From an uncultured bacterium (lineage in GTDB: Bacteria > Patescibacteriota > Gracilibacteria > Absconditabacterales > Absconditicoccaceae), in contig CAUTUR010000001.1 in assembly GCA_963541585.1 (NCBI GenBank), forward strand, positions 1-49,667: a stretch of 49,667 nt of DNA, read 5' to 3'. Under the pieces are notes generated by a model. That model was not told the DNA's origin. It worked only from the letters and a program-made list of their open reading frames with translations, and did not search any database. Shown here one piece after another: positions 16,512 to 21,982 of the stretch (position 1 is the first letter of the stretch; each line of letters begins with the position of its first letter). The translations under genes and the position numbers were made by a program.

Positions 16512-17474
16512 CTAGATAACTTTTTTCCACAGGGGAGAGTGCTTCCGGTTGAGGGTGCGATATTCTTTCGTCGCTTTTTGTATAGCTTGATCATGGGTAA
16601 TTTTCCCTCCATCTTCTAAAGTCCCTTTTCAATACATGGTAGTGAATTTATCTAATTCTGCAACCCAGTCTTTCATCTTCATTTCACAGTGTTCTTGTGC
16701 TTTGATTTCAGCGAGATCAAAAAATGCAGAAACCATACGATTGAGGCGAAAGAGTTCATCTTCTGTGAGATAATTTTTTGCAATTGTAACTTCAGCTAAA
16801 GTTGGCATCGCTCCAATAAAGGTAGTAAGCCCCATAAAATCTTTTGTAGCATCAGCATGATGATAGATCAGCTCAGCAGCAGTTTGTTGACTTGTAGCAT
16901 AGTGAAGCTTATTTTGGACAATCTTAAAAAATTCAATAGATTCAGGACTTTTAGGATCATAATCAATACTCGTGGCATACAGATCCAAAACTTGACGATA
17001 GAGTGCTTTTTCACTACTACGAATGTCACGGATACGATCAAGCAACCCTTTCCAATAATTTCCTCCTGCATTTCCCTTAAGCCTTTCATCATCTATCGTA
17101 AATCATTTGATGATATATTCTTTGAGTCTCTGGGTTGCCCATTGTCTGAAATGAGTTCATTGTAGCGATTTTACTCTATAGCCTACGGAAATAATTACAT
17201 CTAAATTATAATATCTGATCTCTCTTTGGACATCTCTATTTCATTTTTTTTGAACTGTTAGGAAATTCCTAATAGTTGAAACATCACTTAGTTCCTTAGA
17301 TTTGTAAATATTTTTTAAATGTTCATTGATGGTTGTAACTTCTACATCAAACAATTCAGCCATTTGTTTTTGAGAGAGCCAAACGGTTTCATTCTCCAGA
17401 TAGACTTCTAGTTTAAAGTTACCATCTTTTCATTCATAGAGGATGATGCTTTGATTGGTGTGGTTTTGAACCAT
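16512..17474 (-). CDS. rhuM: RhuM-family protein, 320 aa
   Basis: NETVWLSQKQMAELF, ISVGYRVKSLQGTHFRQWATQRLKEY and LLDRIRDIRSSEKALYRQVLDLYATSIDYDPKS are RhuM hallmark strings. Five in-frame TGA, two of them on conserved Gly (QGT, IKGF). ATG at 17472-17474, TAG at 16512-16514. Starts 26 nt after the res stop. Confidence 0.85.
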
Positions 17475-17500
17475 AATTATTAAAATAATGCATAAAATTA

Positions 17501-20065
17501 TTAATTACTTTCTAATAAGTTTTCAAGATCTGACCTAAACTTTCATTGAAGTAACTTCCCATTTTTCAAATAATCAAAAAAAGTTTCATAAGCATTTGGA
17601 CTTAAAAAATGAAAAATATATCTTTGTTTTATTCACTTTTCTATTAGACTTTTATTTAATTTTTCAAAGTGATCTTTTGCATACTTATATTTTGCCTTAT
17701 TCTCATCAGAATCATCTTTATCTGTTTTATTTTCAACAACTATAAAATTTTCAAAATCATCTTTTGATACTTTTATTATAAAATCAGGGTTAAAATTATT
17801 TATTTTTTGATGAGTTCCTTTTCTCCAAGAATATTCAATTTGATAAAATCCTTTATCTCTTGATTTGATCCAGCTTTCAATCTTTTCAGCTATACCTTGT
17901 TTACAAAGGTATTCTACAAATTTCCTTTCAGGAGTTGCATTTGTGAAAACGATATTTACAGGAGTTTTAAATAAAAATTCATTTTGTTCTTTTATTGATT
18001 GTCTTGGCAAACTTTCATCCTCAAGGATCTGTTCAAATATTTTTTGCTGTTCTTCATTTAAAATTTCTTTTTTCCAATTGTTCGTAAAAAAAATAGAATA
18101 ATCTCTCCTTAAATTACCTATAGCTAAACTTTCATTTACCAAATCTTTTGTAGAAATTATCATTAAGTCATTTATATTCTTTTCTATTTTGACTGTTTTT
18201 GATGCGGTCCTCAAGAGTGGACCAAATGCAGTAAGTATTTTTGTCCTATTTTTTTGTATTAAACCATCCTCTTTTTTTATTCAAACTTTCTCCATTGATT
18301 TTAGTATCAAATTTTCAATAATTTCTCTTTTTGGTAGATTGTCTTTTGAATATTTTTCCACATCAATATTTAATATTTTTCCCTCCTCAAACCTTGCTTG
18401 TAACTCATCATAAATTTTATCTATAATTTCATCTACTGAAAAAGTTTCATTTTTTATGGTATATTCTTTACTTCTATTTCTAAAATCATAAATACTTTCA
18501 AACTCTGTTTCTTTTTTTAGAATTACCGACTGAGATTCTAAAGGAATCCCGTTTTCTAGTAACGAATCAAATGTCATTTCATCTTTTGGTGTATGAGGAA
18601 CTTCTTTTTGTTCTTTTGTATAATCAATATTATAAACTTCAAAATTATACTTTGACCTTTCTCCGTCCAATAAAACTTGTGAAATAATTCTTGTTTCTAT
18701 TTCCAAAACCTCATCAACTAGACTTTTTATATTTTTACTCCATGAGTCATGATTAAACACTATAACTTTAGGTTGTGGACTTTGATATGCTTCGGGGATC
18801 CTTAAACCTCTTCCCAAAACTTGTGCGATTAATAATTTTGAATTAAAGGCTCTGTCTTCCCAAGGCACAATTTGAAATACATTTTTTACATCCCAACCCT
18901 CTGTCAACATAGAAACAGAGATAATCCATTGTGTTGAATCAGATTTATCATCTACATATTTTAACCTTGGCAAATTTGCTTTATGATCTTTATGAGAAGT
19001 TACTATTAAAACTTTTTTTTCAACTTCATCTTTTAATAATTTTTCTTGTTTTACTAAAAAATCAACTAGATCATCTTTTAGTGTTTTTGCCTTTGCTATA
19101 TCTTTGGTTATCAAAATAGATAGTGGTTTTATCTTATCATAATTCCTAATATTATCTTGGTGGTTCTGATAAATTTTTTGAAATTTTTCATTTATTCCTG
19201 AGCTATCATCTTTTTGGACATATTCAATATTTTTTACAATTTTATCTTCAATCGCTTCTCTTAAAGAATACCTATATATTACATCATTAAAATATTCATT
19301 ATCTTTGTAGGCGGTTCCAGTAAAACCTAAAATATATTTAAAATTATAATCATTGTTTAATAAAAATTCTCTCCATTTTTTTATATCTTTATCATTACTT
19401 GCATTAAAAATATGATGTGATTCATCGTTTAGAACAAGGGTTCTTTCACCTTGATTTTTAAAGCTATCTTCTATGGAAGATCCTGTTGTGGCATAAACAG
19501 CATGAATATTTTCTACACAAATATCTCCATTTTTAACTGTTACATTTGCATCAACAATTCTTGGATTTTTATATACTGCATTTGGGGGAATTGTATTTTT
19601 TAAGTCTGCATCTCCACTTGAACTGTCAAATTTTTCTGTAAGTCCAGACTCTATAGTAAGAGAAGGACATAAAACTAAAACTTTATCTACAAGCCCCAAT
19701 CAAAGCATTATTTGAGCAATCCCATAAATCACATAAGACTTTCCAGATCCTGTAGCAAGATCAATATTTGCAAAAAGTTTACCAGGTAGTTGTAAGTCTT
19801 TTTTATATAAATCAAGTGAATTATATTTTTCTTGTAATTCACCATTGTTTTGATGATTTTCTTCGATCAAATCTTCAATACTTTTATACATACCACTTGC
19901 AAGATAGATAACTGCATTCTTGATTGCCTCTTTTTGATATTCTCTATCTCCACAAAGTTTATCAATAAAATAATCCCATGAATCTAAATCAAGTTTTGTT
20001 GGATCATAATTAGTGTTTACTTTCAAAAGTAAATCTTTTTGCTTAAAAATTTTAACATCCTTCAT
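17501..20065 (-). CDS. res: Type III restriction enzyme Res subunit (SF2 helicase plus PD-(D/E)xK nuclease), 854 aa
   Basis: Track ORFs 19700-20065, 18281-19699 and 17633-18214 share one frame, joined by TGA. Motif I DLATGSGKS at about 19736-19756, motif II LNDESHH, C-terminal nuclease motif PDF...VVENK at about 17726-17788. TAA at 17501-17503. Confidence 0.85.
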
Positions 20066-20077
20066 AAATCAAGTTTT

Positions 20078-21982
20078 TTAAATTTTAAATGTTTGAGTAA
20101 AATCATTACCAAAAATATCGGTAAAAACTACCATTATTTGATCTTTTACCTCATTTGCATTCAAGGAAATTGTTATTCCTTTTGTTTTTAATTCTTTTAA
20201 TTCATTAATAAGATCCTCGTCTTGCTTCTTTTTTTTATTTTTTGAAAGCAATTCATCGGCAAAAAAAGCCTCATCCATTTCAAAAGATTTGCCGTTATAA
20301 GTTTTATCTATAAATACTGCTGATAAGGTTTCAAAATTTTCAAATGACTTTTCTTCTTTAGATTTGTCTGATAATAGTTCATTTGTTCTAAAATTTTTTA
20401 TAACAAGCTCTATTTTATCTTTAGATTTTTTAATTTCTGCTTTTACTTCTGGAGGTCTTTTGAAATGAAAACCGATAGCCTCTTCAATATCATTTACCTT
20501 ATTCTTGCTTTGAGGTTGTCTTACTTTTACAAAAGGTTTTTTATGAAGTTCATTTATAACATGATAAGGGATTTTCAAAAAATAATATCTTACATCATCA
20601 ATTTCTACAAAATCATCTACAAAATTAACAAAATTAATAGGAGCAACGATATAAACTCTTGAACCAACCTTTTCCCCTACATGTCTATGTATTTCCTGTA
20701 AATAATTTTCATCAACAGATGATTCTTTATATTTATTATAATCATAGATAAGTACTGGATAACTATCCTTTTTTCAATCAAAGAGAAATCAAGAAATCTT
20801 ATATTCTCCTAATCTTACTTCAAAAAGCCCAGAAACAAATTCTAGGTACCTTATTCTTTCAAGCTCAAAAGTTTTTTCTAGATCATAAACTCCAAGACTA
20901 GCAGTAATAAAACTCTTTGCTTTTTTACCATATTTCTTTTTTGAATCTTCTAAATCTTTACTCTCTTGAATTTGTAGGATTCTTTTTTGCATAGTAAAAT
21001 AAGCAAGTTTCCCCAAATCGCAAGTAATCCACTTTCTATCAAGTTTTTCTGCAACTGCCATTGTAGTACCAGATCCACCAAAAAAATCTAAAACAATATC
21101 ACCTTCGTTTGAAGATGCTTTTATAATTCTTTCAAGAAGTGCTTCAGGTTTTTGAGTTGGGTAATTCATTTTAATATCTTTAGCACCTAAAAAACCTGCA
21201 AAATTTTGTATATCTACCCAAACATCTTTATAAGGTTTTTCAGATATATCCCCTGATGGTTGTTGAATTTTAAAAGTTTGTTTGTTAAAAATATAGTTGG
21301 ATTGTGATTTAGTATAATAAAATATTGTTGCTTGTGAATAAATCCAATTATTAGAAAGCCATTTATTACCAGCAACATATGGAATTGATGTGTCCCAAAC
21401 GATAGAACTACGAAAGTTTTCTTTTCAAAAAACTTCATCTAAAACCACTTTCATATAATGACTCATTTTTGAGTCCAAATGAACATAAATACTTCCATCA
21501 TCAGCTAGAATTTCTTTTGCTAGAATTAATCTTTTTCTTAAAAATTCAATAAATTCTGCTCACTTTTTCTTATCACTATAAGCTTTTTGTCCTTTGTTAT
21601 TCTGAAAATCATTTAATGTTGCAAAAGGAGGATCTATATAAATGAGTTTTACCTTTCCTTTTATCTTATCTTTAATAAGTGTGTCTTTGTCTTCATAAAT
21701 AGTTTTAAGAAATTGTAAATTGTCGCCAAAAACTATCATGTTTTTCCATCCATCATCGAAGGCTTCATATTCATTGCCATTGAAAATCTTTTCTATTTGT
21801 AGAGGTACAGGAAAAGACCCATCTTCGTTTGCAAGAATATCTTCTTTTCTCATTTTCCCAGCATATGCTAGCTCATATTCTTTTTGTTTTGTTGGAAAAA
21901 GTAAATACTTAAAATCTTCCGGCAATTCTTTGTTTTCTTGAAGAAGATCTATGATGCAGTCTTTTTGTTCTTTTGTAAGCAT
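20078..21982 (-). CDS. mod: Type III (beta-class) DNA methyltransferase Mod subunit, 634 aa
   Basis: DPPF catalytic motif (IYIDPPF, about 21623-21634) precedes the SAM motif [11 protein letters not shown] (about 21062-21085), the beta-class order. Track ORFs 21560-21982, 20789-21169 and 20078-20578 share one frame; both gaps translated and contain only TGA. Ends 12 nt before res. Confidence 0.88.

What the first reader, a model, noticed from the sequence alone, without database searches (positions are those of the whole stretch)
16512..21982. Type III restriction-modification operon with a RhuM-family gene attached as a third cistron
mod (634 aa), res (854 aa) and rhuM (320 aa) lie on one strand, separated by 12 and 26 nt. 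Both enzymes have intact motifs: DPPF and FxGxG in Mod; motif I, DESHH and PD..ExK in Res.

RhuM-family proteins recur in defense islands but have no established mechanism. A tight mod-res-rhuM arrangement in a code-25 CPR genome suggests RhuM works as an accessory or back-up module of the R-M system.

The operon sits immediately downstream of a toxin-antitoxin pair, which makes 16.5-24.2 kb a compact defense island in a tiny-genome organism.
Basis: partly seen in the sequence, partly recalled or inferred. Interest (0 to 1): 0.6.

Follow-up and report, generated by a model that had tools for sequence, protein, structure and literature searches.

The report
Imported Type III restriction operon beside RhuM
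A working-looking Type III restriction-modification gene pair, recently imported from a standard-code bacterium into this UGA=glycine genome, sits just upstream of an older resident RhuM defence gene, so the "three-gene operon" is a chance joining of two ordinary defence modules, not a new system.

Summary
Under table 25, mod (634 aa), res (854 aa) and rhuM (320 aa) lie on the minus strand, 12 and 26 nt apart, with all the named motifs.

- **mod-res is a recent import.** It is 83% nucleotide-identical to a Treponema contig from the mod ATG to the res stop, except for the Mod target-recognition segment. It uses few TGA-Gly codons.
- **rhuM is the older resident.** An 82%-identical orthologue sits at the same place beside the giant surface-protein gene in a sister lineage, but there it follows a Type I hsdS-hsdR.
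- **rhuM does not travel with this res family.** None of 40 res-family loci has a full rhuM downstream.
- **Elsewhere RhuM sits inside R-M operons.** In 80 RhuM loci I found Type I genes in 21 and a Type III mod-rhuM-res arrangement in 5.
- **RhuM can act alone.** One preprint reports that a RhuM-domain gene (PDC-S05) protects E. coli by itself.
This rhuM has lost its conserved C-terminal tail to a one-base deletion, seen in four independent assemblies that I compared directly. Two near-identical contigs carry a 3.4-kb deletion that removes mod and half of res but keeps rhuM.

Verdict: an ordinary defence locus with an instructive history.

The parts
20078..21982 (-). mod: Type III-style beta-class N6-adenine DNA methyltransferase, 634 aa, with 4 TGA=Gly codons
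   Evidence: PF01555 at 4e-46 and PADLOC MTase_III at 2e-50. PDB sequence hits include the H. pylori Type III Mod 6k0w and the EcoP15I Mod 4zcf_A. DPPF lies at 117-120 and FGGSG at 300-304.
21168..21419 (-). Variable central segment of mod, roughly residues 189-272, taken to be the target-recognition domain
   Evidence: This is the only part of mod-res with no nucleotide similarity to the Treponema contig L114 or to five other homologous loci. It lies between motif IV and motif I.
17501..20065 (-). res: SF2 helicase plus C-terminal PD-ExK nuclease, 854 aa, with 4 TGA=Gly codons
   Evidence: PF04851 at 5e-16, PF18766, a weak PF19778 match and PADLOC REase_III at 3e-11. More than 5000 homologues were found, and some sources name them 'type III restriction enzyme'. 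The motifs are invariant in 23 sequences.
16512..17474 (-). rhuM (PADLOC PDC-S05), 320 aa, truncated at the C-terminus by a frameshift
   Evidence: PF13310 at 2.5e-104 and PDC-S05 at 2.7e-136. It is 82.6% nucleotide-identical to the 338-aa orthologue in L119, with a one-base deletion after codon 306. The same 320-aa protein is recorded on 5 contigs, and the 4 that were returned are 99.8-99.9% identical to the window.
16468..16554 (-). Out-of-frame remnant of the conserved RhuM tail (ALSPVEKSYLENIK...), still free of stop codons in the -1 frame
   Evidence: Three-frame translation and alignment with L119 and 28 homologues.
16311..16334 (-). Terminator-like hairpin followed by a T-rich tail, between rhuM and the giant gene
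   Evidence: No terminator-like site lies at the mod/res or res/rhuM junctions; the two minus-strand hits at 21117..21100 and 20846..20828 are inside the mod ORF.
18629..22005 (.). The 3.38-kb segment absent from two near-identical metagenome contigs. It covers mod and Res residues 1 to about 479. The junction shows a 4-nt TAAT microhomology.
   Evidence: L125 and L126 are 99.8-99.96% identical to the window on both sides of the gap.
22468..23151 (-). HTH-Panacea (SocA) antitoxin-type gene, 227 aa, upstream of mod
   Evidence: PF01381 at 5.6e-17 and PF13274 at 2.4e-16.
22068..22484 (-). Overlapping 138-aa ORF, called as 117 aa in other assemblies; the presumed toxin partner
   Evidence: It is an ORF only under table 25. 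It matches nothing in Pfam, PADLOC, NCBIfam or PHROGs. The toxin role is inferred from its position alone.

Best explanation
The region holds two separate defence modules that history has placed in one transcription unit.

**(1) mod-res is a complete Type III restriction-modification pair.**
- From established knowledge of Type III enzymes, Mod would recognise a short asymmetric site through its central variable domain and methylate one adenine.
- Mod-Res complexes would then use the Res ATPase to travel along DNA and cut unmethylated invading DNA with the PD-ExK nuclease.
- This pair, and only this pair, entered the genome recently from a standard-code donor. It has since begun to acquire TGA-glycine codons.

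**(2) rhuM is an older resident of the locus.**
- It encodes a Bro-N/KilA-N-like DNA-binding domain followed by an all-helical domain whose chemistry is unknown.
- It belongs to PDC-S05, which one preprint reports to be a single-gene anti-phage defence.
- In a sister lineage the same gene at the same place follows a native Type I hsdS-hsdR. The R-M cassette upstream of rhuM was therefore most likely exchanged, Type I for Type III.

**What is inferred but not shown.** The three genes are probably co-transcribed, because the gaps are 12 and 26 nt and the first terminator-like hairpin beyond the mod ORF lies after rhuM. I infer that RhuM acts independently of which R-M sits beside it, and that in this lineage it is weakened or changed by the loss of its conserved 30-residue tail.

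**Status of the evidence.**
- Shown: gene content, motifs, transfer signature, synteny, the frameshift and the deletion variants.
- Inferred: enzymatic activity, co-transcription and the autonomy of RhuM.
For: **Genes and motifs:**

**Transfer of mod-res**
- The window is 83.4% nucleotide-identical to the Treponema sp. contig L114 from 21983 to 17510, except for 21168-21419.
- The Res protein is 85% identical to proteins from MAGs labelled Treponema and Levybacteria.
- dS against Treponema is 0.73-0.92. The neighbouring giant gene has dS 1.64 against the sister strain.
- TGA makes up 0.12-0.13 of Gly codons in mod and res, against 0.32 for the window as a whole (Fisher p = 4e-4).
- Seven of the 8 TGA codons align with donor GGN.
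- No close homologue of this Res was found in 40 relatives.

**rhuM is resident**
- Its TGA fraction is 0.31.
- Orthologue P0125, 82% identical, lies next to the orthologous giant gene in L119, L120 and L121, but after hsdS-hsdR.
- That hsdR has a TGA fraction of 0.33 and is 83% identical to a same-genus hsdR.
- dN/dS of rhuM against L119 is 0.13.

**No co-inheritance:** none of 40 res-family loci with at least 1.2 kb of downstream sequence has a full rhuM.

**RhuM kept without R-M:** L125 and L126.

**Stand-alone activity:** PDC-S05 alone lowered the plating of T7 and T5 about 1000-fold in E. coli B (bioRxiv 10.1101/2024.09.26.614923).

**Fold:** the N-terminal domain matches viral Bro-N/KilA-N models, with target-normalised TM up to 0.70.
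Against: - RhuM is repeatedly wedged tightly inside R-M operons: after hsdM in Type I, and between mod and res in five Type III loci. That pattern suggests more than chance neighbourhood and fits some functional tie to R-M.
- The single report of stand-alone activity is a preprint on a different homologue.
- The res match to curated Type III models is weak (REase_III 3e-11 over residues 258-428), and res has no sequence match to EcoP15I Res in the PDB. The Type III label therefore rests on architecture.
- Promoter-like matches are at chance level (43 found against 45 expected), so the operon structure is unproven.
Confidence: 0.72

Rival explanations
1. RhuM is a functional partner of restriction-modification in general. 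It would act as a second line of defence that is triggered when restriction fails or is inhibited, much as the anticodon nuclease PrrC is guarded by a Type I enzyme. It would work with whichever R-M sits beside it, here the Type III pair.
For: - RhuM sits directly after the methyltransferase gene in many Type I operons, 6-35 nt from the end of the HsdM match to the start of the RhuM match.
- RhuM lies between mod and res in 5 of 80 loci, with overlapping or abutting ORFs in the three whose ORFs were listed.
- At this locus the same rhuM follows Type I in one lineage and Type III in another.
- In species G003, rhuM has no adjacent R-M and carries an internal deletion.
- Anantharaman et al. 2013 proposed such multilayer loci (PMC3710099).
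Against: - PDC-S05 alone was reported to be active.
- Many RhuM genes have no detectable R-M neighbour and instead lie next to Rep_1, serine recombinases or housekeeping genes.
- The deletion variants keep an identical rhuM without mod or the res helicase.
- No interaction data exist.
Confidence: 0.2
2. rhuM in this genome is a decaying remnant with no function, and only the Type III pair is active.
For: - A one-base deletion removes the conserved TLSPVEKxYLExIK tail.
- The frameshifted form is present in all four assemblies compared.
- The closest GTDB species, G003, carries an internally deleted rhuM.
Against: - 306 of about 338 residues remain, including every invariant residue, and the Pfam score is 348 bits.
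- dN/dS against the orthologue is 0.13.
- No further stops or indels have accumulated.
- The tail is the least conserved part of the protein in distant homologues.
Confidence: 0.2
3. mod-res is not a restriction system. It would be an epigenetic regulator, with an inactive or otherwise employed helicase-nuclease.
For: - Type III mod genes often act as phase-variable regulators (established knowledge).
- In the 'Levybacteria' contigs, an intact res sits beside a mod that has lost its catalytic half.
Against: - All catalytic motifs of both proteins are intact and invariant across the family.
- mod carries no simple-sequence repeat that could drive phase variation.
- dN/dS is 0.11-0.17.
- In the natural deletion, mod and the res helicase are lost together, as expected for a toxic nuclease that cannot be left unguarded.
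Confidence: 0.05

Closest known systems
Type III restriction-modification systems (EcoP15I, EcoP1I, H. pylori Mod/Res)
   Same: The gene order is mod then res, 12 nt apart. Mod is a beta-class N6-adenine methyltransferase with a variable central recognition domain. Res has SF2 helicase motifs (DExH) and a C-terminal PD-ExK nuclease. Mod matches the EcoP15I and H. pylori Mod chains in the PDB.
   Different: Res belongs to a distinct, very widespread and highly conserved subfamily, 64-85% identical among the 120 best hits, which come from MAGs and isolates labelled with many different phyla. It has no detectable sequence match to EcoP15I Res in the PDB. Here it is read with TGA as glycine.
RhuM / PADLOC candidate system PDC-S05 (PF13310), as embedded in Type I R-M operons
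   Same: It is the same family (348 bits). It has the same two-domain build and the same habit of sitting in an R-M transcription unit.
   Different: Here it lies after the restriction gene at the 3' end, not directly after the methyltransferase gene. It is beside a Type III pair. It lacks the conserved C-terminal tail because of a frameshift.
R-M-embedded second-line effectors (PrrC/RloC anticodon nucleases, Fic/DOC toxins in Type I operons; Anantharaman et al. 2013)
   Same: A non-R-M gene occupies a slot within an R-M operon. RhuM was proposed in that paper to be a toxin domain that occupies the position DOC holds elsewhere.
   Different: RhuM has no nuclease, HEPN or Fic motifs. Foldseek found no Fic/DOC match. 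Dependence on the R-M partner has not been shown, and one test contradicts it.
Variable defence hotspots with cassette exchange between conserved flanking genes
   Same: Related strains carry different defence cargo at one site: Type I, Type III, a deletion, or nothing.
   Different: One defence gene, rhuM, is itself part of the conserved flank. No integrase or mobile-element marker was seen at the borders.

Membership tests
Type III restriction-modification | Mod is a beta-class N6-adenine methyltransferase with motif IV (DPPY/F) before the recognition domain and motif I (FxGxG) after it | tested here: met
   DPPF lies at 117-120 and FGGSG at 300-304. PF01555 scores 4e-46. The segment between the two motifs varies among homologues.
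Type III restriction-modification | Res carries SF2 helicase motifs and a C-terminal PD-(D/E)xK nuclease | tested here: met
   GSGKS at 106-110, DESHH at 214-218, TGTA at 249-252, GRGLR at 418-422, and PD760-761...E778xK780 are all invariant in 23 sequences.
Type III restriction-modification | mod lies immediately upstream of res, on the same strand, and the two are inherited together | tested here: met
   The gap is 12 nt. A mod homologue lies just upstream of res in nearly every res-family locus that has upstream sequence.
Type III restriction-modification | Strong match to curated Type III profiles | tested here: inconclusive
   Mod scores 2e-50 against MTase_III but 2e-60 against an MTase_II model. 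Res scores only 3e-11 against REase_III, over residues 258-428. The NCBIfam BPTD_3080 match is 81 bits against a cut-off of 800.
Type III restriction-modification | Hemimethylation of an asymmetric site, and ATP-dependent cleavage that needs two inversely oriented sites | not testable with these tools
   This needs methylome data or biochemistry.
RhuM (PF13310) / PDC-S05 | Profile match above the curated threshold across the domain | tested here: met
   348.5 bits against a cut-off of 33.7, covering profile positions 1-248 of 252. PDC-S05 scores 2.7e-136.
RhuM (PF13310) / PDC-S05 | Full-length protein, including the conserved C-terminal tail | tested here: not met
   A one-base deletion after codon 306 replaces the tail with 14 unrelated residues.
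RhuM (PF13310) / PDC-S05 | Confers phage resistance | not testable with these tools
   The only evidence is a preprint on another homologue.
   None of 40 res-family loci has a full rhuM, and one has a 118-aa fragment. None of the 40 relatives has this res. The triplet was found only in near-identical contigs.
Panacea-type toxin-antitoxin pair | An antitoxin with a SocA/Panacea domain next to a toxin gene | tested here: inconclusive
   The HTH_3 and SocA_Panacea domains are met. The 138-aa partner matches no family.

The most novel reading that the evidence does not exclude
RhuM is a companion to restriction-modification that works regardless of R-M type. Its usual slot is directly after the methyltransferase gene, in Type I and Type III operons alike. 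It would monitor restriction or methylation status, or anti-restriction attack, and deliver a second blow. This locus, where one orthologous rhuM is served by a Type I cassette in one lineage and a Type III cassette in another, would be a natural swap experiment showing that the partnership does not depend on R-M type.
Probability: 0.2. Interest if true: 0.65.

Novelty: new member of a known kind. Interest (0 to 1): 0.35.

Why it matters
As a system it is ordinary. Type III R-M is well understood, and RhuM genes riding in R-M operons have been noted since 2011-2013.

Three things make the locus useful:
- **A clean case of recent gene import into a UGA=glycine genome.** The borders fall exactly at the start of mod and the stop of res, and there is a measurable early stage of codon reassignment (8 TGA among 64 glycine codons). 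This could help calibrate how fast foreign genes adapt to a changed genetic code.
- **A natural series of alleles at one site:** Type I plus rhuM, Type III plus rhuM, a deleted R-M plus rhuM, and a decayed rhuM. These bear on whether RhuM needs a restriction partner.
- **A survey result.** RhuM also sits between mod and res in canonical Type III operons. The searchable literature did not mention this.

Tried and rejected
- **PDB sequence search with RhuM:** no hit at E <= 1.
- **Foldseek of the RhuM model against the PDB.** The model has mean pLDDT 73 and a low-confidence interdomain linker. The only matches were weak ones to the Deinococcus DNA-binding protein DdrC (E 4e-4, TM 0.23-0.35, rmsd 13-14 A). 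There was no Fic/DOC, nuclease or HEPN match. I therefore make no enzymatic assignment for the C-terminal domain.
- **PHROGs:** nothing for RhuM or for the 138-aa ORF.
- **Sigma-70 promoter scan:** at chance level (43 found, 45 expected), so I did not use it to place promoters.
- **Simple-sequence repeats in mod that could drive phase variation:** none found.
- **The exact 18-nt direct repeat** (18603-18620 and 21960-21977) looked like the cause of the 3.4-kb deletion. The junction actually lies 8-28 nt away, at a 4-nt TAAT microhomology.
- **A hotspot bounded by the TMEM43-like gene and the giant gene:** not general. In genome G007 these two genes are 137 kb apart.
- **Literature search for RhuM together with 'type III restriction':** no papers.
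- **The look-up of sequencing runs was closed.** I could not map reads, examine methylation or measure variant frequencies.

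
Full report
**1. What is in the sequence**

Under table 25 (TGA = Gly) the minus strand carries three ORFs: 21982..20078 (634 aa), 20065..17501 (854 aa) and 17474..16512 (320 aa). Under table 11 they fall apart into fragments.

- **Mod** matches PF01555 (4e-46) and PADLOC Type III methyltransferase models (2e-50), although its best PADLOC hit is a Type II model. It also matches the Mod chains of H. pylori (6k0w) and EcoP15I (4zcf_A) in the PDB. DPPF lies at 117-120 and FGGSG at 300-304.
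- **Res** matches PF04851 and PF18766, and weakly matches the PF19778 endonuclease domain and PADLOC REase_III (3e-11). In an alignment with 22 homologues, the Walker A, DESHH, TGTA and GRGLR motifs and PD760-761...E778xK780 are invariant.
- **The third protein** is an unambiguous RhuM: PF13310 at 2.5e-104 and PADLOC PDC-S05 at 2.7e-136.

The recoded reading is sound. Seven of the eight TGA codons in mod and res align with GGN glycine codons in a standard-code homologue. The TGA-coded G124 of RhuM falls in an invariant glycine column.

Upstream lies an HTH plus SocA/Panacea protein. It is followed by an overlapping 138-aa ORF that matches no family.

**2. mod-res is a recent import, and only mod-res**

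The Res protein has thousands of homologues. The best ones other than the window's own protein are 85% identical and come from MAGs labelled Treponema and Levybacteria.

At the DNA level the window is 83.4% identical to the Treponema contig L114. The match runs from 21983, the mod start codon, to 17510, nine bases before the end of res. The one gap is 21168-21419, inside mod. The same central gap appears against five other homologous loci. It lies between motifs IV and I, where Type III Mods carry their target-recognition domain.

Three further measures point to recent arrival:
- Synonymous divergence from the Treponema genes is 0.73-0.92. That is lower than the 1.64 between the neighbouring giant gene and its orthologue in a sister strain.
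- mod and res use TGA for 12-13% of their glycines, against 32% for the window's long ORFs and 31-60% for the adjacent native genes (Fisher p = 4e-4).
- GC3 is 0.15-0.16, against 0.20-0.33 for the neighbouring genes.

None of 40 related genomes has a close homologue of this Res. No Type I methyltransferase domain was found in the 90%-complete assembly.

**3. rhuM was already there**

RhuM homologues occur in 19 of the 40 relatives.

The closest, P0125 (82% identical), lies on three Logan contigs that read TGA as sense. On those contigs it is followed by the orthologue of the window's 4364-aa giant gene, as here. It is preceded, however, by a Type I hsdS and hsdR. DNA similarity to the window starts about 15 nt into rhuM and resumes in the giant gene. 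Nothing upstream of rhuM matches.

That hsdR has a native-like TGA usage of 0.33 and is 83% identical to the hsdR of a same-genus genome. In two other same-genus genomes, rhuM (68% identical) lies inside a Type I operon: hsdM-rhuM-DUF4238-hsdS-AAA_13-hsdR.

The most economical history is that a native Type I cassette upstream of rhuM was replaced by the imported Type III pair. The direction of the change is an inference from codon usage.

In the closest GTDB species (G003), a homologue of the lipoprotein gene that lies upstream of the TA pair is followed by an internally deleted rhuM, with no TA pair or R-M between them.

**4. Does rhuM travel with this res?**

No. Of 58 res-family loci from GTDB genomes, 40 have at least 1.2 kb of sequence downstream of res. 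None of those carries a full rhuM. One, from a Nitrospiraceae MAG, has a 118-aa RhuM fragment 134 nt after res.

The slot after res holds varied genes: RES-domain proteins, an AAA_15/21 ATPase, a C5 methylase, DUF2971 and housekeeping genes.

Of the nearest homologues (85% identical), only L116 has enough downstream sequence to judge (about 6 kb), and it shows no rhuM.

**5. Where does RhuM usually sit?**

I examined 80 metagenome loci centred on RhuM.
- 21 have Type I genes nearby. The usual order is hsdM, then rhuM within 6-35 nt of the end of the HsdM match, then hsdS.
- 5 (L178, L199, L202, L203, L204) have rhuM between a canonical Type III mod and res, with overlapping or abutting ORFs in the three whose ORFs were listed. 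The PADLOC scores are MTase_III 4e-159 and 2e-215, and REase_III 8e-184 and 1e-277.
- 6 lie beside large serine recombinases, and 4 are tandem RhuM pairs.

So the link between RhuM and R-M is real and covers Type III. The usual slot, however, is directly after the methyltransferase gene, not after res.

The association with R-M operons is already in the literature. Anantharaman et al. 2013 (PMC3710099) proposed that RhuM is a toxin domain acting by protein modification. Another paper lists RhuM among the genes enriched near inverting Type I hsdS loci (PMC9881135). I found no paper that pairs RhuM with Type III systems.

**6. What RhuM may do**

The AlphaFold model (mean pLDDT 73) shows an N-terminal beta-sheet plus winged-helix domain and a C-terminal helical domain.

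The N-terminal domain resembles viral Bro-N, KilA-N and antirepressor models, with target-normalised TM up to 0.70 over about 110 columns. This makes DNA binding the likely role of that half. The C-terminal half has no convincing structural relative. The best PDB match is DdrC, at TM 0.23-0.35.

The C-terminal half does carry a cluster of invariant polar residues (IRSSEK, VQNKxH, TAAE, AKNYL).

A preprint reports that a PDC-S05 gene alone reduced plating of T7 and T5 about 1000-fold, and of T4 about 10-fold, in E. coli B (10.1101/2024.09.26.614923). I therefore favour an autonomous defence gene that benefits from being expressed with R-M genes. This is inference.

**7.

*The frameshift.* Compared with the 338-aa orthologue, this rhuM has a one-base deletion just after codon 306. 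The conserved tail (TLSPVEKxYLExIK...) is now in the -1 frame, where it is still free of stops, and the protein ends after 14 unrelated residues. The exact 320-aa protein is recorded on five contigs. The four that were returned come from four separate ENA assemblies and are 99.8-99.9% identical to the window. This is not an assembly slip. Over the shared 306 codons, dN/dS is 0.13.

*The deletion variants.* Two of those contigs, L125 and L126, lack window 18629-22005. That segment holds all of mod and the first 479 or so codons of res. The ends are joined at a 4-nt TAAT microhomology. What remains is a 358-aa Res C-terminal fragment followed by an unchanged rhuM. L127 and L128 have the intact arrangement. 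Whether the two deleted contigs come from independent samples I cannot tell.

**8. Operon structure**

No terminator-like site lies at either gene junction. Two weak minus-strand hits fall inside the mod ORF. The first one beyond mod is a hairpin at 16334..16311, followed by a T-rich tail, between rhuM and the giant gene. Promoter-like matches are no more frequent than in shuffled sequence. Co-transcription is therefore likely but unproven.

**9. Verdict**

The finding is real and correctly annotated. It is a juxtaposition of a newly imported Type III R-M with a resident, slightly damaged RhuM gene at a variable defence site. It is not a dedicated three-gene system. It is a new member of known kinds.

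Its value lies in the dated import into a recoded genome and in the natural allele series around rhuM.

Noticed in passing
window 18629-22005; L125 6840-6860; L126: Two near-identical metagenome contigs carry a 3.38-kb deletion that removes mod and the helicase half of res. A 358-aa nuclease-domain fragment and an intact-as-here rhuM remain. The population is polymorphic for the R-M system.
   Followed up: yes
window 16468-16554 (minus strand): The displaced RhuM tail is still an open 29-codon frame and closely resembles the orthologue's tail. An A6 run (16521-16526) lies within it. Either the frameshift is recent, or some ribosomal slippage restores part of the tail. I did not test this.
   Followed up: partly
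L023 2559-4639 and L024 8070-10141 (genome G013): Two copies of a rhuM gene (about 72% identical to the window's) are each paired with a Rep_1 rolling-circle replication protein. This suggests that rhuM also rides on a small mobile replicon in this genus.
   Followed up: partly
L129 4350-6138 (genome G003, contig 38): In the closest GTDB species, the lipoprotein homologue is followed by a rhuM remnant that joins residues 3-82 to about 244-317. There is no TA pair or R-M, and about 13 kb of other genes separate it from the giant gene.
   Followed up: partly
L116 5161-8568 and L118 5167-8574 ('Levybacteria' MAG contigs): An intact 855-857-aa res (85% identical to the window's) sits beside a mod reduced to its last 261 or so residues, with no methyltransferase domain. 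An apparently unguarded restriction subunit is odd.
   Followed up: no
L035 317-4360: A Muribaculaceae contig carries two tandem mod copies upstream of res. This is possibly a shuffling or alternative-specificity arrangement.
   Followed up: no
L045 9584-10429, L046, L081 4494-5237: RES-domain (toxin-type) proteins lie directly after res in three res-family loci (Pfam-confirmed in L045 and L081; L046 has a matching 281-aa ORF at the same offset). An AAA_15/AAA_21 ATPase follows res in L042. The slot after res often holds other defence-like genes.
   Followed up: partly
L187, L188, L189, L194, L198, L201 (downstream of RhuM): Six RhuM loci have a large serine recombinase (Resolvase, Recombinase and Zn_ribbon_recom domains) immediately downstream. 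This points to carriage on integrative elements.
   Followed up: partly
window 18603-18620 and 21960-21977: An exact 18-nt direct repeat (TCTTTTTGTTCTTTTGTA on the plus strand) lies in the first codons of mod and inside res, close to the deletion endpoints but not at them.
   Followed up: yes
L199 296-5095: Upstream of one Type III mod-rhuM-res operon lie an HKD+Snf2 helicase (PADLOC C3a139), an Abi_C protein and a DUF4391 protein. A KAP NTPase lies downstream in L202. Together they form a dense defence island.
   Followed up: no
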